From an uncultured virus (IMG/VR IMGVR_UViG_3300034072_002247) (lineage: Duplodnaviria; Heunggongvirae; Uroviricota; Caudoviricetes), in the IMG/VR virus record IMGVR_UViG_3300034072_002247: a stretch of DNA of 64,000 nucleotides. One strand, given 5' to 3'. The translations under genes were made by a program, and so were the position numbers. This document shows positions 1,220-48,497 of this stretch, in pieces. Position 1 is the first letter of the stretch, and each line of letters begins with the position of its first letter. The notes below the pieces were generated by a model. That model was not told the DNA's origin, searched no databases, and saw only the letters and a list, made by a program, of their open reading frames with translations.

Positions 1220-1855
1220 ATGTATATTCAAAAAATAATAGAAAAATATAATCCAGAAGCAGCATTTAATTATGGTTCGTTTCTTTATAAAAATAAAAAA
1301 CCTAGTGATTATGATTTTATTATTGTTACTGATAAAGATTATTTTCAAGAATCATTTGAGTTAGAAGGTGTTAAATTTGAAGTTACTAATTATAAAAAAG
1401 AACAATTTTTAGATCTTTTGAAAAAACATGAAATAGCAATTCTTGAGTGTATATTTATAGAGTCTGATAAACATATGTCAGCAGAAATTAAAAATTACTT
1501 TGATAATTTTAAAATAGAAAAAGAACAACTAAGAGAAAGCTTATCTTCAAAAAGCTCTAATAGTTATGTAAAAGCTAAAAAAAAGTTGATAATTGAAGAA
1601 GATTTTGACTTAAATGTTTCATTAAAATCATTATGGCATTCTTTTAGAATTTTAAAATTTGGAATAGATATCGCCAAAAATGGCAATATAAATCCTGAAT
1701 CTTGTAATAATCTTTATGAACAAATTAAAATGGATTATATTGTTTTTGGTAATGATTGGGATAAAATACATAAAAAATATAAACCAATATATAATGATCT
1801 AGCATCAGAATTTAAATTAATATGTCCAAAGAAAAATAAAATTATTCTTCAATAA
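1220..1855 (+). CDS. Pol-beta-superfamily nucleotidyltransferase
   Basis: N-terminal GS...SDYD motif (YGSFLY...SDYDFIIV). Confidence 0.75.
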   Translation: MYIQKIIEKYNPEAAFNYGSFLYKNKKPSDYDFIIVTDKDYFQESFELEGVKFEVTNYKKEQFLDLLKKHEIAILECIFIESDKHMSAEIKNYFDNFKIEKEQLRESLSSKSSNSYVKAKKKLIIEEDFDLNVSLKSLWHSFRILKFGIDIAKNGNINPESCNNLYEQIKMDYIVFGNDWDKIHKKYKPIYNDLASEFKLICPKKNKIILQ

Positions 1856-2677: not shown

Positions 2678-5035
2678 ATGAGAGTTGTTTATTTTTTATC
2701 AGGAATGCCAGGAACTGGAAAAAGTACATTTATTAACAAGAATGAATTAGAAGCATTAACTATTTCATTAGACACACTTAGAAATATTTATTCAGGTTTA
2801 CAAACTGATTATATAGGAAATATTGTTTTATCCCAAGATAAAAATGATTATGTATATGCTAAATTTTTAGAAGCACTTAAATTTAGATTACAATTAGGTG
2901 GTAAAATTATTATAGATAATTTAAACCCAAAAAATAAAGACATTAAAGAAGTTGTTGAAATCTTAAATCAATATGACTATGATTATAAAGTTGTTCAATT
3001 TAAATTGGAAGATTTAAATTTTTATTTAGAAAGAAATAAGCAAAGAAGTAAATATAAAAGTATTCCAGAAGAAACTATAAAAAATATTTATAAACTATTT
3101 CAAGAAAGAGATTTTCCAAAAGATAAAATAATAACTCCTGAAGAAGCTATTAAAGAAATAAATGCCTCTCCTGAAGATTTACTTGAAGATGTTAGTCATT
3201 ATAAGAAAATTCACTTTATAGGTGATTTACAGGGTTGTTTTTATCCAATCTATAATTACTTAAAAACAAATGGAATAAAAGATGATGAACTTTATGTATT
3301 CTTAGGCGATTATATTGATAGAGGTATTGAAAATGATAAATGTTTAGAATTTGTTTTAAGCAATATACATAAGAAAAATTTTATATTTATAATGGGTAAC
3401 CATGAAAAACATTTATATAATTATAGCAATAATTTATTAAAGCCGCCAACTGAATTTATGTTGCAAACTTTGCCACAGTTGAAGCAGGCTAACTTCTCAA
3501 ATGATAAAATGAAAGAAGTTTATAGAAATCTTCATTTATTCAAATTTTTAAAACATAATGATAAAAAAATATTTGTATCACATGCGGGATTAATTACTAT
3601 TCCAGATAGACCTAATATATTAAATTTTGATGAATATATGAAAGGGCATGGTAGTTATGCATTTAATGTTGATGCTGCATTCCAAGAAAAAAATCAAACT
3701 AATGAATGGTATCAAGTTCACGGACATAGAAATAAATATAAATTAGATTTTAATAGTTATACAAAAAGCTTTGCGTTAGAAGCTGATGTAGAAAATGGTG
3801 GTAACTTACCTATTTTAAGACTTGATTCTAATGGTTTTGATGGGGTTTATATACATAATAAAATATTTAATAGAGAGTTAATAATGAAAAGAGAAAAAGA
3901 ACAAAATATGTTTTTAACAAAAGTTATAAATAGTAGTGTAGGTGAATTTTTAACAAGTAGAATTAATTATGATAAAAATGGATTAGAAATTATTAATGAA
4001 CTAAGAAAAAATGATCTTATTAGAGAAAAAACATTTGAAGATCTTCCTCATATATCTTCATTCAATTTCAAAAAACAAGCATTTTTTGATAAGAGATTTG
4101 ATGATGAATTAGTTATCCATGCAAGAGGATTATTCTTTAATAATTTAACAGGTGAAATTGTTGCTCGTGGTTTTGAAAAATTCTTTAATATTAATGAAAG
4201 AGGAATAGAGTCAGCTAAAATTGAGAATATTGAAAGAACATTCAAAATGCCAGTAACACTTTATGAGAAAGAAAATGGATTTTTAGGTTTAATTGGTTAT
4301 GATTCAAGTAATCATTCATTATTATATGCATCTAAAAGTGATATTGGTGGCGAATTTTCTCAATATCTTGAAAATATTGCTAAAACACAATTTAGTTCTG
4401 GAGAATTAGAATATTTAAAAATATTTGCTAACAAACATAATGTCAACTTTATATTTGAGGTTAATGATCCTATAAATGATCCACATATTATAAAATATGA
4501 AAAACCACATTTAGTTTTATTAAGTGTAGTAAAAAGAGAATTAAGATATTCTGAAATGTCTTATGACCACTTATTAGAATTTGCGAAAGAGTTCAAAGAC
4601 TTACCAGTTAAGAAAAAATTAGTACAAATTAACAATTTTAAATCTTTTATGGGCTTCTATAATTCAGTAAGTAAAGAAAGTGCATTAACTACAAAGAGAC
4701 AATTAGAAGGTTATGTTGTTCAAGATAATGATCTAAATATGGTTAAAATAAAACTACCTTTCTATAACTTCTGGAAATGTATGCGTGGTTTTATAGATCA
4801 GATGAATAATGCTGAAGATAAAAACAAAACATTTGAAATTACAAATACGGTTAACAACCATTTCTTAATTAATGATTCAGATAAAGAATCTGCTATTAAG
4901 TTTTTAGAATATGTTAAATCAATTCCAAGAGAAAACAGAGAAAGAGATATCATATCTTTAAGAGATGATTTCTTAAATAAAAATGATAATCAAAATAAGG
5001 TTGTTTTAGAAAAGAAAAATAAATTAAAAATATAA
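2678..5035 (+). CDS. Pnkp-like RNA repair fusion: P-loop kinase + calcineurin-like phosphoesterase + Rnl1-like RNA ligase
   Basis: GMPGTGKS Walker A; GDLQG, GDYIDRG, GNHE, HGH phosphoesterase motifs; ARGFEKFFN, EKENG, FIFE, EGYV, KIK ligase motifs. Confidence 0.85.
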   Translation: MRVVYFLSGMPGTGKSTFINKNELEALTISLDTLRNIYSGLQTDYIGNIVLSQDKNDYVYAKFLEALKFRLQLGGKIIIDNLNPKNKDIKEVVEILNQYDYDYKVVQFKLEDLNFYLERNKQRSKYKSIPEETIKNIYKLFQERDFPKDKIITPEEAIKEINASPEDLLEDVSHYKKIHFIGDLQGCFYPIYNYLKTNGIKDDELYVFLGDYIDRGIENDKCLEFVLSNIHKKNFIFIMGNHEKHLYNYSNNLLKPPTEFMLQTLPQLKQANFSNDKMKEVYRNLHLFKFLKHNDKKIFVSHAGLITIPDRPNILNFDEYMKGHGSYAFNVDAAFQEKNQTNEWYQVHGHRNKYKLDFNSYTKSFALEADVENGGNLPILRLDSNGFDGVYIHNKIFNRELIMKREKEQNMFLTKVINSSVGEFLTSRINYDKNGLEIINELRKNDLIREKTFEDLPHISSFNFKKQAFFDKRFDDELVIHARGLFFNNLTGEIVARGFEKFFNINERGIESAKIENIERTFKMPVTLYEKENGFLGLIGYDSSNHSLLYASKSDIGGEFSQYLENIAKTQFSSGELEYLKIFANKHNVNFIFEVNDPINDPHIIKYEKPHLVLLSVVKRELRYSEMSYDHLLEFAKEFKDLPVKKKLVQINNFKSFMGFYNSVSKESALTTKRQLEGYVVQDNDLNMVKIKLPFYNFWKCMRGFIDQMNNAEDKNKTFEITNTVNNHFLINDSDKESAIKFLEYVKSIPRENRERDIISLRDDFLNKNDNQNKVVLEKKNKLKI

Positions 5036-23116: not shown

Positions 23117-23701
23117 TTATTCTCCTTTATTTTCGTTTATTTTTTTACCAATTTTATTTATTTTCTTCCATTTAATTTTAAAACTATCGGAAGATATTCC
23201 ACCAAACATACTAGCATTACTATGTATTTCACACAGTCCAGTGATTAGTAATGTAATGTGATATGGTAATTTTTGAAATTCTTCAAGTTGATCTAATTTT
23301 AACAAATGAATATCCATATCATGAGCAATTAAATCACTCTGAAGTTTATTATTTGTAAGATTAAACCAAATTTTTGAAGAAATTTCTGCATGATTAGGAA
23401 AGTGTCTTTTACCTTCAGAATCAATTTCTAGACAGAATGGTTTTCCACAATCATGAAATATTTGATATATATTTATATCTTTTATATTTTCAAGATTTTC
23501 CCAAAGATTTTTATTATAAATCCAATCAGGAAGTTTCCATTCAAATTTTAGTGGTTGATTATTTAAGATGTGATTTCTTAAATCATGAAAATATTTATTT
23601 ACAGATATGCCATGATTTAAAATGCTTAAACCTTTAGTTTGTTCGCATTCTTTCATAGAATTTATTAAGTTTTTAAATTTTTCTTTATCAATTTACAACA
23701 T
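23117..23701 (-). CDS. HD-domain phosphohydrolase with in-frame TAA at codon 3
   Basis: HG, FHDCGKP, HFPNHA, HDM motifs; strong-SD ATG at 23701 is in frame with the track ORF (23656) but followed by TTG-TAA (23695-23693). Confidence 0.75.
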
Positions 23702-23714
23702 ATTATAATCTCCT
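23685..23714 (-). promoter_or_regulatory. start cassette AGGAGATTATAAtATG-TTG-TAA-ATT-GAT-AA, copy 1
   Basis: 29/30 nt identical to 25693-25722. Confidence 0.8.
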
Positions 23715-23744
23715 CTATTGGTTATTTATTATATCAAAGAATCA

Positions 23745-24491
23745 TTAATTTTTCAAAACTTTTTTTATTGAATTTATCAATTTATTTTTTTCTATAAAAT
23801 CATTTAAAGATATTTTATCAGAGCGCATATATTCTTCATAATTAAATTTTGCAAATTTTATTTCTAAAGTTTTAACACCATCTATTTCAACCATTTCTGA
23901 ATTATTAATTGAAATTTCATCTCCTTTAAAATGAATTTCAGATTCGTCGCAATTAAAAAAAGAATAAAGTTGAATTCTTCCTATAATTGAACCATAATCT
24001 TCAAATAATTTAATTTTTAAATCTTGGTCATTTACATATTTTAAAAATTTAACAACTTTTTCAATATCTTCAAAATTAATTTCATAGGTAGGATAAAAAT
24101 ATTTAGCTGATTCACTTTCAGTGTCCGTTTCAACGATAGATATATAAAATAAATCTTCCAATATTTCTGAATTTAAATTTACTCTTTCATTGTATATATG
24201 GTTAAGTTTTTTTATTTCTCTATTATTAAAATTAACCTTGCTATTAATTATATCTTTTATAACACTTTCGTTTATTATTATATATTTGTTTATTTCTCTA
24301 TTTTTATAACCTATACAATATTTATCTATAATAAATGAATGATCATTTATTTTTAATTCTAAATTATTTTTATGATAACTATAAGAATTAATTGTATTAG
24401 AATCAACATTTCTAAAAAAAACTACTGTTTTTGTTAATAATTCTAAATTTAAATTTTTAATAATTTCATTTTTCATAATTAATCTCTTCAA
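23745..24491 (-). CDS. hypothetical protein, partial paralog of 24466-25251
   Basis: YPTYEINF..IEKVVKFL vs YASTYEVNF..LENLVKFL. Confidence 0.65.
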   Translation of the reverse strand: MKRLIMKNEIIKNLNLELLTKTVVFFRNVDSNTINSYSYHKNNLELKINDHSFIIDKYCIGYKNREINKYIIINESVIKDIINSKVNFNNREIKKLNHIYNERVNLNSEILEDLFYISIVETDTESESAKYFYPTYEINFEDIEKVVKFLKYVNDQDLKIKLFEDYGSIIGRIQLYSFFNCDESEIHFKGDEISINNSEMVEIDGVKTLEIKFAKFNYEEYMRSDKISLNDFIEKNKLINSIKKVLKN

Positions 24492-25251
24492 TTATTTCAT
24501 TTATATTTTTAAATTTATAAATGTTTGATATTTCAATTACAATAGTGTTTTCATCAGAAAATGGAGTTTTATAAATAGCTATTTTTTCTAAATCAATGTC
24601 CAATTCAATATCTATATCTTCTTTTTTATAATAGCCTTCTATATTTCCATCTGGAACAACCGTGAAATATACATCTTCCAAATATATTTGGTTTAAAAAC
24701 TTAACTAAATTTTCTAAAACTTTAAAATTAACTTCATATGTTGAAGCATAAATGTCATAATCATTTTCAGATAATGCAACTTCTATTAAACTATCTATTG
24801 TTCTTTTTGAACAATATTTTAAATCATATAATAAACTTAATTTATGAAGTTCTTTATCATTATAAAATTCAAATTTATTATTAAATCTTATTTTAGATAA
24901 AACATAATCAGATATTACTATATCATAAGAAATAAAATCATTATAATAAGTAGTCATATTTTTTTCAAAAATTAATATATTAGTTATATTTATATCTTTC
25001 CATTCTAATATTAATTCACCTTCATATCCAAAAAATATATACAAATTTCTTTCAATATTTTTATTTTGCTTTATGAAAATTAAAGCTTTTTCTAATGATT
25101 TATAATTCATAGGATCTGCATTTTTACCATCCCAATTTTTTTCTATTTCTGATAATTCCACTAATCTATTATATTCTCTTTCATTTAAGTATTCATTGTA
25201 ATTACTAATTAAATCTAAAATTTCTTTATTCATTTTTTCACCTATATACAT
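24466..25251 (-). CDS. hypothetical protein
   Basis: 261-aa ORF with NWDGKNADP motif. Confidence 0.65.
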   Translation of the reverse strand: MYIGEKMNKEILDLISNYNEYLNEREYNRLVELSEIEKNWDGKNADPMNYKSLEKALIFIKQNKNIERNLYIFFGYEGELILEWKDINITNILIFEKNMTTYYNDFISYDIVISDYVLSKIRFNNKFEFYNDKELHKLSLLYDLKYCSKRTIDSLIEVALSENDYDIYASTYEVNFKVLENLVKFLNQIYLEDVYFTVVPDGNIEGYYKKEDIDIELDIDLEKIAIYKTPFSDENTIVIEISNIYKFKNINEIIEEINYEK

Positions 25252-25709
25252 TGAAATTTTTTGGTTATATGTTTTATATCTTCTTTTTTACAAGGACCGA
25301 TTCCTAAAGCAGTAATGATAGGTTTTCCATCAAAGTGTGGTGGTAATATATGACCTTGATCAACAATTAAAGCACAAGGAATGCCTTCAGATTTAGCCTG
25401 AATATATGCTTTTATTAAATGATCTTCATTTTTTGCTTTTAATGTAACTTTAGAACCACCAGATTGAGAATTTCTATAATTAGCAACATTTTCTGGATGT
25501 GTGTTTAAAGCATTCATTAATGAATCAGTGTATGCATGACCAGCCTGAGCAGATAGTTTTCCAGAAGGCATTTCTAGATCTGAACGAATGATTGCATATA
25601 TGTAATAGTGAGAGTCTTTAGAGTAATCTAAAGGTATTTTTTGAGTGTGAAGACGTATTAATTCTTCTTTTGATATTTTGCTTAAATCTATATTATCAAT
25701 TTACAACAT
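25242..25709 (-). CDS. pth2: peptidyl-tRNA hydrolase Pth2 with in-frame TAA at codon 3
   Basis: YIYAIIRSDLEMPSGKLSAQAGHA, KVTL, IVD, TALGIGP; the conserved first strand lies upstream of the track's Met (25571); the only upstream SD-ATG is 25709, followed by TTG-TAA. Confidence 0.85.
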
Positions 25710-25722
25710 TTTATAATCTCCT
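25693..25722 (-). promoter_or_regulatory. start cassette AGGAGATTATAAaATG-TTG-TAA-ATT-GAT-AA, copy 2
   Basis: 29/30 nt identical to 23685-23714. Confidence 0.8.
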
Positions 25723-25783
25723 TTTAGTTTTATGATTATTTACACTTCTATAATATAACAATACAAAATTATTTTGTCAACAA

Positions 25784-34221: not shown

Positions 34222-34300
34222 GGGGGCACATGTACCAATGGGCCGGCGAGGAAGGTTTGCACCTTTCCTGTGAAGAGTTCGATTCTCTTTGTCTCCACCA
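34222..34300 (+). tRNA. tRNA-Ala(TGC), atypical D-arm
   Basis: GGGGGCA/TGTCTCC with G3:U70, loop TT-TGC-AC, TTCGATT T-loop, ACCA. Confidence 0.8.
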
Positions 34301-34303
34301 AAT

Positions 34304-34449
34304 TTGTGCTATAGTTATATGTTGGTAAAATAGTTTTTATAGGTTAAAGTTTACAGTTCAATTCTGTATCACTTTATTATAAAGGATAGTTTAATTAGGT
34401 AAAACATTAACCATAGAAAAAGTATGTAGTTCGATTCTACATAGCACAA
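34304..34449 (+). ncRNA. anticodon-less double tRNA-like RNA (two tRNA bodies fused through the anticodon stems)
   Basis: acceptor TTGTGCTA/TAGCACAA; two D-arms with GG loops; two T-arms (TTCAATT, TTCGATT); internal closed acceptor hairpin; 13-bp connector 34334-47/34407-19; no CCA. Confidence 0.75.
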
Positions 34450-34455
34450 TAAAAC

Positions 34456-34531
34456 GGGGTGATAGCTCAGTTGGGAGAGCGTCTGAATGGCATTCAGAAG
34501 GTCGTGGGTTCGAACCCCATTCATTCCACCA
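34456..34531 (+). tRNA. tRNA-Ala(GGC)
   Basis: canonical cloverleaf, G3:U70, TCTGA-AT-GGC-AT-TCAGA, ACCA. Confidence 0.95.
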
Positions 34532-34543
34532 GATTTAAGATAT

Positions 34544-34618
34544 GGGCTTATAGTTTAATTGGGAAAATATCTGCCTTGCACGCAGAAGTTCAGAGTTCGA
34601 TTCTCTGTAGGTCCACCA
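34544..34618 (+). tRNA. tRNA-Ala(TGC)
   Basis: G3:U70, TCTGC-CT-TGC-AC-GCAGA, ACCA. Confidence 0.95.
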
Positions 34619-34623
34619 AATAT

Positions 34624-34700
34624 GTTCGCGTAGCTCAGTTGGATAGAGCAGCCGCCTTCTAAGCGGCTGGTCGTGGGTTCGAATCCCTCCGTGAACGCCA
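34624..34700 (+). tRNA. tRNA-Arg(TCT)
   Basis: GCCGC-CT-TCT-AA-GCGGC, GCCA end. Confidence 0.95.
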
Positions 34701-34702
34701 AG

Positions 34703-34787
34703 TTAAGTTAAAAATATAGGGTCAGAACCTATCTGCTGAATTTTATTAAATTTGGTGGTAATGTAACGGTAAACATATTTAACTTAA
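34703..34787 (+). ncRNA. circularly permuted tRNA-like RNA (T-arm, closed acceptor stem, D-arm order; YrlA-like module)
   Basis: closing stem TTAAGTTAAA/TTTAACTTAA; ATAGG-GTCAGAA-CCTAT; CTGCTGAATTT-TATT-AAATTTGGTGG; TA; ATGT-AACGGTAA-ACAT. Confidence 0.7.
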
Positions 34788-34792
34788 ATTAT

Positions 34793-34869
34793 GGGTCTGT
34801 AGTTCAGTTGGGAGAACGCTTCGCTTGCACCGAAGATGTCATGGGTTCGAATCCCATCAGTATCCACCA
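34793..34869 (+). tRNA. tRNA-Ala(TGC) with a bulged base in the acceptor stem
   Basis: GGGTCTG/CAG-T-ATCC, CTTCG-CT-TGC-AC-CGAAG, ACCA. Confidence 0.9.
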
Positions 34870-34874
34870 GTTAT

Positions 34875-34950
34875 GGGGTTTTAGTTTAATATTGATAAAA
34901 CGCCGGGGTTAAACTCGGAAATGCAAGGTAAACACTTGTAGACTCCACCA
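34875..34950 (+). tRNA. Ala-identity tRNA-like RNA with 6-nt anticodon loop
   Basis: GGGGTTT/AGACTCC with G3:U70 and ACCA; CCGGG-GTTAAA-CTCGG; non-canonical T-loop GTAAACA. Confidence 0.7.
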
Positions 34951-34960
34951 ATTTATATAT

Positions 34961-35035
34961 GGGCTGATAGTTTAATTGGGAAAATCCCTGCCTTGCACGC
35001 AGGAGTTCAGGGTTCGATTCCCTGTTGGTCCACCA
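34961..35035 (+). tRNA. tRNA-Ala(TGC)
   Basis: G3:U70, CCTGC-CT-TGC-AC-GCAGG, ACCA. Confidence 0.95.
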
Positions 35036-35047
35036 GATTTTTTATAT

Positions 35048-35123
35048 GTCCTCTTAGCTCAACTGGAAGAGCAATGACCTTCTAAGTCATAGGTTGTAGG
35101 TTCGAATCCTACAGGGGATGCCA
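35048..35123 (+). tRNA. tRNA-Arg(TCT)
   Basis: ATGAC-CT-TCT-AA-GTCAT, GCCA end. Confidence 0.95.
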
Positions 35124-35128
35124 AATAT

Positions 35129-35203
35129 GGGGATTTTAGTTTAACCGGGAAAACGGCTTGCAAGAGTGAGCAGTCTGTAGTTCAAGTCTACATATCTCCA
35201 CCA
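35129..35203 (+). tRNA. Ala-identity tRNA-like RNA with collapsed anticodon loop
   Basis: GGGGAT/ATCTCC with G3:U70 and ACCA; GCTTGC-AAGA-GTGAGC in place of the anticodon arm; intact D and T arms. Confidence 0.7.
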
Positions 35204-35209
35204 TATAAA

Positions 35210-35284
35210 GGTTCTCTAGCATAATGGTTAATGCACTCCGCTCATAACGGAATGATTCAGGTTCGATTCCTGGGAGAACCACCA
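35210..35284 (+). tRNA. tRNA with CAT anticodon (probably Ile2, possibly Met)
   Basis: GGTTCTC/GAGAACC, TCCG-CT-CAT-AA-CGGA, ACCA; no initiator features. Confidence 0.85.
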
Positions 35285-35290
35285 AATTAC

Positions 35291-35367
35291 GGGACTTTAG
35301 CTCAGTTGGTTAGAGCATCCGACTCATAATCGGCAGGTCGTAGGTTCAAGTCCTACAAGTCCCACCA
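35291..35367 (+). tRNA. tRNA-Ile2(CAT), reads ATA after lysidine modification
   Basis: CCGA-CT-CAT-AA-TCGG anticodon arm as in enterobacterial tRNA-Ile2, GGGACTT/AAGTCCC, ACCA. Confidence 0.9.
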
Positions 35368-35385
35368 TATTTTTTGGAGATATTT

Positions 35386-35919
35386 ATGAAATTTCCTTAT
35401 ATTCCACCACTTTCAATAGATGAATTCTTAAAGTTAGATTCTGATAATATAACTATTCTTGAAAATAAAGAATTAATTTTAAAAATAGAAAAAAGATCTT
35501 TATATATTTTTGAAAGAATATCTCAAATTTTAAATTTAAATTTTAGTTGGGTAACTTTTGATACTATTGATTTAGAAAGACATAAAAATGAAAATAATGG
35601 AACTTTTTCTTATAATAAATATAAAGATTATATTTCTTTCTATAGTGATCTTGAAGAATTAGAGCACTTAAACAAAATTATTGATGTTTATTACAATAAA
35701 TTTCCTACTAAATTTATATATGAAAATTTTGAGAATGAAGTTTTAGAAACTATATCTAAAATTAAAAAATCAATTGAAGAAAAAAAAGAAAGAAACAAAA
35801 AAAAGAGAATAAAAGAAAAACAAAATAAAATTGAAAGAGATAAAATTAGACCAGAAGTTATTGCTTCTATAAAATCCAAATTAACAGAACTTGAACTTTC
35901 TTTTATTGATTTTAAATAA
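35386..35919 (+). CDS. hypothetical protein inside the tRNA array
   Basis: GGAG SD before ATG at 35386; C-terminal coiled coil. Confidence 0.7.
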   Translation: MKFPYIPPLSIDEFLKLDSDNITILENKELILKIEKRSLYIFERISQILNLNFSWVTFDTIDLERHKNENNGTFSYNKYKDYISFYSDLEELEHLNKIIDVYYNKFPTKFIYENFENEVLETISKIKKSIEEKKERNKKKRIKEKQNKIERDKIRPEVIASIKSKLTELELSFIDFK

Positions 35920-35928
35920 ATACGTTAT

Positions 35929-36004
35929 GTCCATATAGCTCAACAGGAAAGAGCAACTGCCTCCTAAGCGGAAGATATAGGTTCGAGTCCTATTATGGAT
36001 GCCA
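35929..36004 (+). tRNA. tRNA-Arg(CCT)
   Basis: CTGC-CT-CCT-AA-GCGG, GTCCATA/TATGGAT, GCCA end. Confidence 0.9.
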
Positions 36005-47891: not shown

Positions 47892-48497
47892 TTAACTTAA
47901 AAGTTCAAACATTTTTAGATCATCTCCACATTTATTTTTTAGTCTATCTATCCAGGCTTGATTTTTAACTTTGCAGCGAATAATTTTATTTTTTAAAAAT
48001 GCTTTACCAATTACACCTTCAAATGTCATTCCAGAAAAATTACCTTCTTTTATTTCTTTCATAACAATTTGATTTAATCTAAATATGCCTAAAAATTCTG
48101 CCATATCTATATTATCAAAAGCCTTAATGTAATCTTTGGGTGGTAAATATCCTATTTTACCTATATGTGCATCTATTAATTTTACTTTAAAATTATCATT
48201 TTCTTCATGAAATCCTGCAAATGATTTATCTCCATAAAATTCAAAAAATAATGTACCATCCTGCCATTTATTTTTTTTAAAAATATCATATACTGCTTTT
48301 TCATTTTGCATTATTAAGTCTTTTGATAAATTTAAAATACCTGAATCATCAGACATCAACTTTTTTCTGGTTCCAAATTTATCAAATCCTTTTTTTAATG
48401 AGAATTCAACTCTTATATTGGAGCCATCTAATTTATCAAATAGATAATAATCTAAATCTTTTATAACTTCTTTATTAATACTTGGATACTGTTGCAT
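47892..48497 (-). CDS. small RNA-ligase-family nucleotidyltransferase (Rnl2-like)
   Basis: YPSI, DKLDGSN (motif I), FGTR, FFEFYG, FEGVI, KVKN. Confidence 0.75.
   Translation of the reverse strand: MQQYPSINKEVIKDLDYYLFDKLDGSNIRVEFSLKKGFDKFGTRKKLMSDDSGILNLSKDLIMQNEKAVYDIFKKNKWQDGTLFFEFYGDKSFAGFHEENDNFKVKLIDAHIGKIGYLPPKDYIKAFDNIDMAEFLGIFRLNQIVMKEIKEGNFSGMTFEGVIGKAFLKNKIIRCKVKNQAWIDRLKNKCGDDLKMFELLS

What the first reader, a model, noticed from the sequence alone, without database searches (positions are those of the whole stretch)
25242..25722. Pth2 gene begins ATG-TTG-TAA: programmed in-frame stop (minigene) at codon 3
Seen: minus strand AGGAGA-TTATAAA-ATG TTG TAA ATT GAT AAT...; the frame then stays open through YIYAIIRSDLE-MPSGKLSAQAGHA. 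The conserved first strand of Pth2 lies upstream of the first in-frame Met after the stop, so a complete enzyme needs UAA readthrough or reinitiation at the adjacent ATT. Established: two-codon minigenes (lambda bar) provoke peptidyl-tRNA drop-off and Pth dependence; prfB and infC autoregulate through an internal stop and an AUU start. Inference: a sensor that makes peptidyl-tRNA hydrolase when termination, recycling or initiation fidelity is impaired.
Basis: partly seen in the sequence, partly recalled or inferred. Interest (0 to 1): 0.85.

Follow-up and report, generated by a model that had tools for sequence, protein, structure and literature searches.

The report
Stop-gated Pth2 gene needing suppressor tRNA
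A huge-phage gene for a tRNA-recycling enzyme carries a deliberate stop codon two codons after its start, and related genomes encode a matching special tRNA beside the gene, which points to a tRNA-operated translation switch.

Summary
On the minus strand AGGAGA-7 nt-ATG TTG TAA ATT opens a Pth2 frame whose first beta-strand lies before the first in-frame Met. Contigs from other studies show the same TAA.

The layout is conserved. 53 unique related loci from huge phages, megaplasmids and metagenomes have SD-ATG, 1-9 codons and a stop abutting a Pth2 frame. In 36 the leader is in frame; in 17 a +1 shift is needed. Other Pth2 paralogs in the same genomes start with a plain ATG.

The codon after the stop varies, and a tRNA gene whose anticodon matches the site lies beside or near the gene. 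The pairs are UAG/CUA, UGA/UCA, UAGC/GCU+A37, UAGA/8-nt loop UCUA and CAUU/AAUG.

A second window gene, an HD protein like the C-terminal part of a tRNA-processing enzyme, carries the same 27-nt leader.

Best reading: translation of two tRNA-3'-end enzymes is gated by a dedicated phage decoder tRNA. For this window the decoder is inferred. No standard UUA tRNA lies in the 64 kb, only an odd tRNA-like gene.

The parts
25752..25780 (-). sigma-70-like promoter TTGACA-17-TATATT with TG before the -10 box, about 40 nt upstream of the leader ATG
   Evidence: 11 of 12 matches. The total number of promoter-like hits in the region is not above the shuffles (25 against 31.9), so this is a consensus match only.
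25717..25722 (-). Shine-Dalgarno AGGAGA, 7 nt before the leader ATG
   Evidence: An SD at 3-12 nt precedes the leader ATG in 45 of 50 unique loci.
25704..25709 (-). leader mini-ORF ATG TTG (Met-Leu)
   Evidence: The same ML leader occurs in L008, L001, L009, L011-L014 and L020. The last sense codon is Leu in 28 of 50.
25701..25703 (-). in-frame TAA followed by A: the recoding site
   Evidence: The base after the leader stop is never T, in 0 of 36 leader types, against 81 of 271 ordinary ORF ends.
25245..25700 (-). Pth2 reading frame (152 codons from ATT; stop TAG 25242-25244)
   Evidence: PF01981 E 2.3e-23. Model pLDDT 90.9. The stretch from the stop to beta1 shows a coding signature in relatives: substitutions by codon position 95/57/247.
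25584..25607 (-). first beta-strand (residues 32-39), upstream of the first in-frame Met
   Evidence: DSSP on the model gives E32-39 with pLDDT about 97. Y35, I37, R39, D41 are nearly invariant in 37 sequences.
25569..25571 (-). first in-frame ATG (Met44). Gene callers start here and lose beta1.
   Evidence: 29 of the best 120 database proteins start at this Met.
23687..23713 (-). second copy of the leader: GGAGATTATAAT ATG(23701-23699) TTG TAA(23695-23693) ATT GAT
   Evidence: (1 mismatch in 27). It is in frame with the ORF below.
23120..23692 (-). HD-domain protein (HDCGKP motif) gated by the same leader; own Met at 23656
   Evidence: phrog_14850 E 3.7e-55. Model pLDDT 93.8. Best structural match is residues about 259-445 of PDB 3wfr/3wfq/3wfs/3wfo/3wfp 'tRNA processing enzyme', Z 13.2-14.2. 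Homologs beside Pth2 carry the same type of leader.
23728..23756 (-). sigma-70-like promoter TTGAAA-17-TATAAT with TG, upstream of the second leader
   Evidence: 11 of 12. Consensus match only.
34875..34950 (+). candidate decoder, unproven: a tRNA-like gene in the tRNA array with a cloverleaf, encoded CCA, and a 6-nt anticodon loop GUUAAA that contains UUA
   Evidence: Infernal tRNA 36.2 bits, E 6.4e-4. ARAGORN does not call it. Sequence and fold. The T-loop is non-canonical.

Best explanation
The TAA at codon 3 is a programmed recoding site. Ribosomes load at the strong SD-ATG, read Met-Leu and meet UAA-A. Full-length Pth2, including its first beta-strand, is made only when the stop is decoded by a dedicated suppressor-type tRNA encoded by the phage, in competition with release factor. 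Otherwise a dipeptide is released. The same leader gates a second gene 2 kb downstream, an HD-domain protein resembling the C-terminal part of a tRNA-processing enzyme. The two enzymes, both likely to act at tRNA 3' ends, therefore form a small regulon switched by one tRNA.

Shown: the site is real, it is conserved, and the downstream stretch is coding. Relatives fall into two decoding classes, and the site co-varies with the anticodon of a neighbouring tRNA. The leader is shared by two genes.

Inferred: that the tRNA actually decodes the site; that this window's phage has an ochre-reading tRNA; and the purpose. My guess is timing by, or feedback through, the charged state of the decoder tRNA, so that output of the two enzymes follows the state of the phage tRNA pool.
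For: (1) Conservation. 53 unique loci have SD-ATG, 1-9 sense codons and a stop abutting the Pth2 frame (50; L040; L163 and L164). 36 are in frame and 17 need +1. One mis-picked leader, L026, was corrected by hand.

(2) Specificity. 9 of 9 other Pth2 paralogs in the same genomes, and also XacN1 and SCTP-2, have a plain ATG. In A4, PHA46, RsoM2USA and Sandalphon the annotated CDS starts upstream of the match.

(3) Stop usage. Leader stops are TAG in 29 of 36 leader types, against 34 of 271 ordinary ORF ends. The next base is never T, in 0 of 36 against 81 of 271. In-frame sites are followed by a purine in 22 of 24 types. From memory, that is the known favourable context for nonsense suppression.

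(4) Cognate tRNA, in-frame class. One was found for 20 of 36 loci, and the type always matched (17 UAG/CUA, 3 UGA/UCA).
- Within 23-928 nt upstream on the same strand: L002, L020, L037, L039, L060, L067, L069 and L054.
- 2.5-5 kb away: Phosso, G003, G004, G005, G007, G011, G012, G013, G014, G016.
- Elsewhere in the genome: Atu_ph07 and G009.
The UCA prediction for G004 and G005 was made before it was looked up (note, result).

(5) Cognate tRNA, +1 class. 13 of 17 loci have a tRNA 16-269 nt upstream whose anticodon plus base 37 pairs with a 4-base site.
- GCU+A for UAGC: L017, L018, L021, L023, L025, L027, L029, L164.
- AAU+G or GAU+G for CAUU: L033, L040, L035.
- 8-nt loop CCUCUAAU for UAGA: L058.
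- AUU+A for UAAC, 3 of 4 pairs: L163.
Several have 8-9-nt loops or a mismatched loop-closing pair.

(6) Window clade. L020 (tRNA-CUA 46 nt upstream) and L002 belong to the window's own ML/MKKL-TAR-ATT clade.

(7) Second gene. It carries the same leader in the window. In relatives its leader type matches that of the resident Pth2: TAA-A with TAA-A, TAG-A with TAG-A, TAG-C with TAG-C.

(8) Coding signature. The stretch right after the stop shows 148 synonymous against 138 non-synonymous changed codons, with position-3 excess.
Against: No tRNA with a standard UUA anticodon loop lies in the 64-kb window. There is only a weak tRNA-like gene with a 6-nt loop. Its look-alike in relative G001 has loop AUUUCU and does not co-vary with that genome's TAG leaders.

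For 16 of 36 in-frame loci no cognate tRNA was found. Mostly only 1.5 kb of flank could be read. G002, judged complete, has no CUA tRNA among 66 ARAGORN calls. It has only an 84-nt tRNA with an 8-nt loop CGCUUAAC.

In the window's clade ATT follows the stop in 10 of 10 Pth2 leaders and 7 of 7 HD-gene leaders. That also fits restart at AUU.

L008 has an in-frame ATG at codon 9 after the stop. The HD gene has an invariant Met 12-15 codons after its stop. Leader-independent products are therefore possible.

No protein or expression data exist. The amino acid carried by the decoder tRNAs is unknown. The loci are phylogenetically related, so the counts are not independent events. Roughly six site-to-anticodon associations are independent.
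Confidence: 0.6

Rival explanations
1. Termination-reinitiation: ribosomes translate ATG TTG, terminate at TAA and restart at the adjacent AUU. The leader is then a coupling device that sets a low, IF3-sensitive level of Pth2.
For: ATT directly follows the stop in all 10 unique Pth2 leaders and all 7 HD-gene leaders of the window's clade, and TAR-ATTGAT is conserved even where the leader codons differ. No decoder tRNA was found in the window.
Against: Outside this clade the following codon is GAA, GAC, GAT, CAA, GTT, AAG, ACT and others, which are not start codons. 17 of 53 loci need a +1 shift. Two members of this clade, L020 and L002, have a tRNA-CUA just upstream. Restart does not explain why the stop type tracks the tRNA anticodon.
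Confidence: 0.13
2. A prfB-like sensor without a dedicated tRNA: readthrough or shifting by host tRNAs competes with release factor at a weak stop context. Pth2 then rises when termination is slow.
For: T is absent after the stop, and C follows it in 16 of 17 +1 sites, as in prfB UGA-C (recalled). The site is early and follows a strong SD.
Against: There is no slippery P-site codon: TTG, CAC, AAC and CAT cannot re-pair at +1. No internal SD lies 3 nt before the site. The product is not a release factor. The matching tRNA genes beside the site are left unexplained.
Confidence: 0.12
3. A minigene or drop-off sensor, the first reader's main idea: the two-codon ORF makes fMet-Leu-tRNA that drops off, and Pth2 synthesis responds to peptidyl-tRNA load.
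For: The leader is formally a two-codon minigene with a strong SD, and the product is a peptidyl-tRNA hydrolase.
Against: Leaders range from 1 to 9 sense codons. No step links drop-off to decoding of the next codon. The same leader gates an HD-domain protein. Other Pth2 paralogs lack the leader.
Confidence: 0.05
4. A decaying gene, or a short active product from Met44.
For: Gene callers start at Met44 (29 of 120 database entries).
Against: The stop is conserved in 53 loci. The stretch upstream of Met44 is under coding constraint and holds strand beta1. There are no other in-frame stops in any of the frames.
Confidence: 0.03
5. Genome-wide reassignment of the stop codon (alternative genetic code).
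For: Huge phages with TAG or TGA reassignment and suppressor tRNAs are known (Borges et al. preprint, passages read).
Against: TAA ends 47 of 65 window ORFs of at least 100 aa. The flanks of relatives are 85-97% covered by ORFs under the standard code. The in-frame stop is single and always sits at the leader. The +1 class cannot be a reassignment.
Confidence: 0.01

Closest known systems
Phage stop-codon recoding with phage-encoded suppressor tRNAs (Borges et al. preprint 10.1101/2021.08.26.457843, passages read)
   Same: A phage suppressor tRNA is proposed to switch on genes that carry in-frame stops. A suppressor tRNA sits just upstream of the gated cassette.
   Different: There the in-frame stops are many and spread through late and lysis genes, amounting to a code change. 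Here there is one stop at a fixed place, 1-9 codons after the start, in genomes that otherwise use the standard code. The gated genes are Pth2 and an HD enzyme. A +1/quadruplet version also exists. 'Hydrolase' does not occur in that text.
prfB (RF2) programmed +1 frameshift at an early in-frame UGA-C (recalled)
   Same: An early in-frame stop followed by C, competition with termination, and a translation-factor gene.
   Different: There is no CUU-U slippery codon and no internal SD. The window's site needs no shift. The product does not read the stop. A cognate tRNA gene accompanies the site.
Streptomyces bldA tRNA-Leu(UAA) and TTA-codon gating (recalled; related paper PMC10732093 seen only in a search listing)
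   Same: One specialised tRNA gates translation of a small set of genes through a codon placed in them.
   Different: bldA reads a rare sense codon. Here the codon is a stop or a four-base site, and the tRNA gene is physically linked to its target.
Frameshift-suppressor and laboratory UAGN-decoding tRNAs (SufJ, PMC4238358; UAGN tRNAs, PMC4764823; abstracts seen in the search listing)
   Same: tRNAs with enlarged anticodon loops read four bases such as UAGA. L058's tRNA has loop CC-UCUA-AU beside a UAG-A site.
   Different: Those are mutants or engineered molecules. These are natural genes conserved beside a natural target. Decoding here is inferred from sequence only.
Lambda bar minigenes (recalled)
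   Same: SD plus a two-codon ORF plus a stop in a phage, with a link to peptidyl-tRNA hydrolase.
   Different: bar minigenes are not followed by an in-frame enzyme ORF and act by tRNA sequestration. Leaders here vary from 1 to 9 codons.
Orphan suppressor tRNAs of jumbo phages Atu_ph07 (PMC6102473) and XacN1 (PMC5852040); passages read
   Same: The Atu_ph07 paper reports one UCA suppressor tRNA and two Pth genes. The XacN1 paper reports CUA suppressors with no target found.
   Different: Neither paper links the tRNA to a Pth gene. Here the Atu_ph07 Pth2 homolog has the leader MIGEHF-TGA in frame. XacN1's annotated Pth has a plain ATG, so its suppressors stay unexplained.

Membership tests
Peptidyl-tRNA hydrolase PTH2 (PF01981) | Match to the Pfam profile above its gathering score over the whole domain | tested here: met
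   83 bits against cut-off 23; residues 34-150, profile positions 3-113 of 115.
Peptidyl-tRNA hydrolase PTH2 (PF01981) | Equivalog of archaeal/eukaryotic Pth2 (NCBIfam NF003314, TIGR00283) | tested here: not met
   79.1 bits against cut-off 126, and 71 against 82. It is a family member but a separate subfamily.
Peptidyl-tRNA hydrolase PTH2 (PF01981) | Hydrolysis of peptidyl-tRNA | not testable with these tools
   No assay was possible. The fold model is confident (pLDDT 90.9).
Suppressor-tRNA-dependent (nonsense-gated) gene | A tRNA able to read the in-frame stop is encoded in the same genome | tested here: inconclusive
   Window: no standard UUA tRNA in 64 kb, only the tRNA-like gene at 34875-34950 with loop GUUAAA. 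Relatives: met in 20 of 36 in-frame loci.
Suppressor-tRNA-dependent (nonsense-gated) gene | Stop identity co-varies with the suppressor anticodon | tested here: met
   17 UAG/CUA and 3 UGA/UCA pairs, with no mismatched pair found.
Suppressor-tRNA-dependent (nonsense-gated) gene | The full-length product contains the leader and an inserted residue | not testable with these tools
   This needs N-terminal mass spectrometry. Database proteins that start MLQ may be TAG read as Q by a gene caller.
prfB-type programmed +1 frameshift | Slippery P-site codon that re-pairs in the +1 frame (CUU U) | tested here: not met
   The last sense codons TTG, CAC, AAC, CAT and CTA cannot re-pair. The window's site is in frame.
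prfB-type programmed +1 frameshift | SD-like element about 3 nt upstream of the shift codon | tested here: not met
   The only SD is the initiation SD, 6-10 nt before the ATG.
Lambda bar-type minigene | SD plus a two-codon ORF plus a stop | tested here: met
   AGGAGA-7-ATG TTG TAA. Relatives have 1-9 sense codons.
Lambda bar-type minigene | Toxicity through peptidyl-tRNA drop-off in Pth-limited cells | not testable with these tools
   No experiment was possible.
infC-type AUU start codon control | AUU start placed at working distance from an SD | tested here: not met
   The SD-to-ATT distance is 16 nt. ATT is absent outside the window's clade.
Alternative genetic code (stop reassignment) | The codon is rare as a terminator and frequent inside conserved genes | tested here: not met
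   TAA ends 47 of 65 window ORFs. There is one in-frame stop per gated gene.
HD-domain phosphohydrolase, tRNA-nucleotidyltransferase C-terminal type (second gated gene) | HD fold with the conserved H...HD...H...D residues | tested here: met
   H68, D69, H89, D113 and H117 are invariant in 11 sequences. VIA Z 13.2-14.2 to 3wfr/3wfq/3wfs/3wfo/3wfp residues about 259-445; the next HD proteins score Z 10 or less. The tool notes that helical folds can reach Z 13-14 without kinship. There is no Pfam, NCBIfam or PDB sequence hit.

The most novel reading that the evidence does not exclude
Huge phages and megaplasmids carry a portable three-part translational switch. It consists of a dedicated decoder tRNA, a short leader ending in the site that only this tRNA reads, and the gated enzymes (Pth2 and an HD tRNA-end enzyme). 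The tRNA and its site co-evolve through at least six forms: UAG, UGA, probably UAA, and the four-base sites UAGC, UAGA and CAUU. The four-base forms would be the first natural, conserved pairs of a quadruplet-decoding or +1-shifting tRNA with a dedicated target. Because both enzymes act on tRNA 3' ends, the decoder may serve as a reporter substrate. Its charged state would feed back on synthesis of the enzymes that strip or repair tRNA ends, possibly as counter-defence against tRNA-targeting host toxins.
Probability: 0.35. Interest if true: 0.92.

Novelty: new variant of a known kind. Interest (0 to 1): 0.85.

Why it matters
It gives suppressor tRNAs in standard-code jumbo phages a concrete target. 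The Atu_ph07 paper named no specific target, and the XacN1 paper reported finding none (passages read).

It shows that one Pth2 subfamily is systematically mis-annotated. 535 protein clusters match at E 1e-10 or better. Of the best 120, 29 are truncated at the internal Met.

If the +1 class is read by the adjacent tRNAs, these are natural quadruplet-type decoder and target pairs. That would interest both recoding biology and genetic-code engineering.

The system can be tested in cultured material: Sinorhizobium phage Phosso, Agrobacterium phage Atu_ph07, and the 1.06-Mb plasmid of Pseudomonas serbica IT-P366.

Six full-text searches found no paper linking a Pth2 leader stop to a suppressor or frameshift tRNA. 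The library lacks most subscription journals.

Tried and rejected
- No RNA holder is listed for the stretch, so nothing can be said on expression.
- Pairwise comparison did not reveal the identity of the decoder tRNAs. The best similarity to any canonical tRNA of the same genome was 0.61-0.77.
- The conserved motif after UAG-C (CUCUUGCG.ACGG...GACCGCAC plus a variable hairpin) gave only 3 invariant pairs and no covariation in RNAalifold. Single folds scored z -1.2 to +1.1, so no structure is claimed.
- XacN1 was tested as a prediction and failed. Its annotated Pth has a plain ATG.
- Three database proteins start MLQ where relatives have ML-stop (P0003, P0006, P0058). They come from short Logan contigs and may be TAG read as Q by the gene caller. 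I could not see the DNA, so they are not used as evidence.
- The HD protein has no hit in Pfam, NCBIfam or PDB sequences.
- Promoter-like hits are not more frequent than in shuffles.
- Genome-wide reassignment was rejected.
- An initiator-tRNA reading of the decoders was considered and dropped. The SD-to-site distance reaches more than 30 nt, and the first acceptor pair is a normal C-G in the two examined.
- The G001 look-alike of the window's odd tRNA does not co-vary with its leader.
Full report
**What is there.** The window is 19-30% G+C. It is densely coded and phage-like. It holds ArgRS, ClpB, an RNA ligase/kinase/phosphatase, RNase H, OmpA and pilin-like genes, a virion structural protein and a tRNA array.

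On the minus strand the sequence reads AGGAGA (25722-25717), TTATAAA, ATG TTG TAA ATT GAT AAT.... The frame stays open from ATT (25700) to 25245. PF01981 (PTH2) matches residues 34-150 of that 152-residue translation. No ATG, GTG or TTG lies between the TAA and Met44 at 25571. In an AlphaFold model built on 37 sequences (pLDDT 90.9) the first strand of the sheet is residues 32-39. A product started at Met44 would therefore lack it.

The TAA is present in contigs of runs from other studies (X2/X3, X4, X5). These differ from the window only at 25503 and 25512. It is also present in an independent contig, L008, at 97% protein identity.

**Conservation.** I collected relatives as follows:
- 5 + 30 loci from IMG/VR;
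- 39 from metagenomes;
- 3 from species genomes;
- the cultured phages Phosso and Atu_ph07.

After I dropped exact duplicates, contig-edge cases (L036, L041) and outgroups, 53 unique loci share one layout. The layout is an SD, a start codon (ATG; GTG in L037), 1-9 sense codons, and a stop that abuts a Pth2 frame with no canonical start before the first strand. L034 belongs to the clade but has ordinary ATGs.

In 36 loci the leader is in frame with Pth2, as in the window. In 17 the leader lies one base upstream of the Pth2 frame, so a +1 shift is needed. My script picked the wrong leader for L026, and I corrected it by eye.

Stops by class:

| Class | TAG | TGA | TAA |
|---|---|---|---|
| In-frame (36) | 31 | 3 | 2 |
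| +1 (17) | 12 | 3 | 2 |

The stretch between the stop and the first strand is coding. In 29 pairwise comparisons within 7 groups (not independent), substitutions fall 95/57/247 on codon positions 1/2/3, and 148 of 286 changed codons are synonymous.

The feature is specific to one subfamily:
- 9 of 9 other Pth2 paralogs in the same genomes, and the Pth2 of XacN1 and SCTP-2, have a plain ATG just before the strand.
- In A4, PHA46, RsoM2USA and Sandalphon the annotated CDS starts upstream of the match.
- The archaeal-like loci L042-L045 have ordinary start codons.

**Context of the stop.** Collapsed to 36 distinct leader types, TAG is the stop in 29, against 34 of 271 ordinary ORF ends in the same loci. 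T never follows the stop (0 of 36, against 81 of 271). In-frame sites are followed by a purine in 22 of 24 types, and +1 sites by C in 11 of 12. From memory, a purine after the codon favours nonsense suppression, and stop-C is the weak terminator used in prfB.

**The tRNA link.** Testing the rival 'suppressor tRNA' idea changed the reading.
- Atu_ph07 (leader MIGEHF-TGA) encodes one tRNA with anticodon UCA.
- Phosso (MKY-TAG) encodes two with CUA, one about 4.5 kb from the gene.
- G003 (MKEL-TAG) encodes one with CUA, about 3 kb away.

I then predicted UCA for the two other TGA-type genomes (note). Both have a lone tRNA-UCA about 4 kb from Pth2, away from their main tRNA cluster.

ARAGORN and Infernal on all loci then showed a tRNA gene directly upstream, on the same strand:
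- tRNA-CUA 23-928 nt before the leader in L002, L020, L037, L039, L060, L067 and L069;
- the same in L054, where a tmRNA gene also sits.

Further CUA tRNAs lie 2.5-5 kb away in G007, G011, G012, G013, G014 and G016, and in the tRNA cluster of G009.

In all, 20 of 36 in-frame loci have a cognate suppressor in what I could read, and no pair is mismatched. For the other 16, mostly only 1.5 kb of flank was available. G002, judged complete, has no CUA tRNA among 66 calls. It has only an 84-nt tRNA with the 8-nt loop CGCUUAAC, which ARAGORN labels Lys|Stop.

**The +1 class.** 13 of 17 loci have a tRNA 16-269 nt upstream whose anticodon plus base 37 can pair with four bases at the site.
- 'Ser(GCU)'-called tRNAs with A37 sit beside UAG-C in L017, L018, L021, L023, L025, L027, L029 and L164. 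Most are 78-82 nt with no long variable arm, so they are not ordinary tRNA-Ser. The one on the Pseudomonas serbica plasmid is 90 nt with a long arm and an A·C pair closing the loop.
- AAU+G37 or GAU+G37 sits beside TCG CAU UGA C in L033, L040 and L035, matching the four-base site CAUU.
- An 8-nt loop CC-UCUA-AU sits beside UAG-A in L058.
- AUU+A37 sits beside UAA-C in L163, with 3 of 4 pairs.

Infernal aligns 9-nt loops in L033, L040 and L027 and an 8-nt loop in L058. L015, L016, L019 and L026 show no tRNA in 1.4-1.5 kb upstream.

Enlarged loops are the mark of frameshift-suppressor tRNAs (abstracts seen). That these tRNAs decode the sites is my inference.

**A second gated gene.** Laying contigs revealed a second copy of the leader. 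At 23687-23713 the same 27 nt, with 1 mismatch, precede and are in frame with ORF 23117-23656. This protein matches phrog_14850 and has invariant H, HD, H and D residues. Its model (pLDDT 93.8) best matches residues about 259-445 of PDB 3wfr/3wfq/3wfs/3wfo/3wfp 'tRNA processing enzyme' (Z 13.2-14.2, rmsd 2.4-3.0, 145-150 aligned). Other HD proteins score Z 10 or less. From memory, these entries are a class II tRNA nucleotidyltransferase whose HD part repairs tRNA 3' ends. That identification is recalled, not tested.

Homologs lie beside the recoded Pth2 in many loci, and many of them carry a leader of the same type as the resident Pth2:
- TAG-ATTGAT in L001, L009, L011, L012, L013 and L014;
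- UAG-C followed by the same CUCUUGCG.ACGG...GACCGC motif in L018 and L164;
- an ordinary ATG in L002, L033, L026, L029 and L069.

The switch therefore controls at least two enzymes that plausibly work on tRNA 3' ends.

**How it most likely works, and what stays open.** The common denominator is a site that ordinary decoding ends, plus a linked tRNA that can read it. I therefore read the window's TAA as a tRNA-gated stop.

The window itself does not show its decoder. Its 10 clear tRNAs are Ala, Arg and Met. One weak tRNA-like gene (34875-34950, 36.2 bits) has a good cloverleaf, an encoded CCA and a 6-nt loop GUUAAA containing UUA. However, its look-alike in G001 does not co-vary. In the window's clade ATT always follows the stop, so restart at AUU remains a live rival there. 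The purpose of the gating (timing, proportional control, or feedback through the decoder's charged state) is speculation.

**Literature.** The Atu_ph07 paper reports the UCA suppressor and two Pth genes without linking them (passages). The XacN1 paper could not find targets for its CUA suppressors (passages). Borges et al. describe suppressor-tRNA modules upstream of recoded lysis genes and do not mention a hydrolase (passages). Searches found nothing on a Pth2 leader stop.

**Verdict.** It is a new variant of suppressor-tRNA or recoding control. It may include natural four-base decoding.

Noticed in passing
window 34224-36004 (+): A tRNA array of 10 clear genes: Ala-UGC x4, Ala-GGC, Arg-UCU x2, Met x2 and Arg-CCU. 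An 11th, weak tRNA-like gene at 34875-34950 has a 6-nt anticodon loop GUUAAA. The relative G001 has a similar array with 8 Ala-UGC copies.
   Followed up: partly
L015-L029, L164: the 30-50 nt after the leader stop (e.g. L016:1464-1523): After UAG-C or UAA-C the nucleotides C UCU UGC G.A CGG N3-4 GAC CGC AC are conserved. A 1-nt indel changes the encoded peptide (ERIDRT against GRIGPH) while the nucleotides stay the same. A hairpin of varying sequence follows (CUGC/GCAG, CCUCA/UGAGG, CCGCCC/GGGCGG). The same motif follows the leader of the HD gene. It may be a cis recoding signal. RNAalifold and z-scores did not support a structure.
   Followed up: partly
L054:964-1316: A phage-encoded tmRNA gene (113 bits) lies between a tRNA-Thr and the tRNA-CUA that precedes the gated Pth2.
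   Followed up: no
G007, G008, G009, G012, G013, G014 (loci L144-L158): These huge phages carry 2-3 Pth2 paralogs each. Only one subfamily has the leader stop.
   Followed up: yes
L010, L012, L017, L033 (contigs of 0.78-1.86 Mb); L164 (1.06-Mb 'plasmid unnamed1' of Pseudomonas serbica IT-P366); P0087 (904-kb contig, Pseudomonas sp. Leaf58): The gated Pth2 also sits on very large contigs and megaplasmids. IMG/VR calls the 181-kb record G001, which holds locus L001, a provirus. L010, from a 1.86-Mb contig, is identical to L001 around the leader and the start of Pth2, so G001 may be cut from that contig. The carriers may be megaplasmid-like or phage-plasmid elements rather than only phages.
   Followed up: no
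L132 c[3232-3317] (G001); L127 c[422-505] (G002); L143:1944-2020 (G007): Further tRNAs with 8-nt anticodon loops (UUCGCUUA; CGCUUAAC; an ARAGORN '(ggaa)' call) have no assigned target.
   Followed up: no
window 2678-5035 (+), 1220-1855 (+), 47892-48497 (-): tRNA/RNA repair genes: a kinase-phosphatase-RNA ligase fusion, a Pol-beta-type nucleotidyltransferase and a second RNA-ligase-like ORF. These fit the tRNA-maintenance theme around the gated genes.
   Followed up: no
window 24466-25251 (-): The ORF downstream of Pth2 could start at an ATG overlapping the end of Pth2 (ATGTATATAGGTGAAAAAATG). It and the next ORF (23745-24491) have no family hit and separate the two gated genes.
   Followed up: no
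P0003, P0006, P0058 (database proteins): Proteins called as MLQ-IDN..., MLQ-NVTKEE... and MLQ-KENK..., where relatives have ML-stop. They are either sense-codon (Gln) variants or TAG translated as Q by the gene caller.
   Followed up: partly
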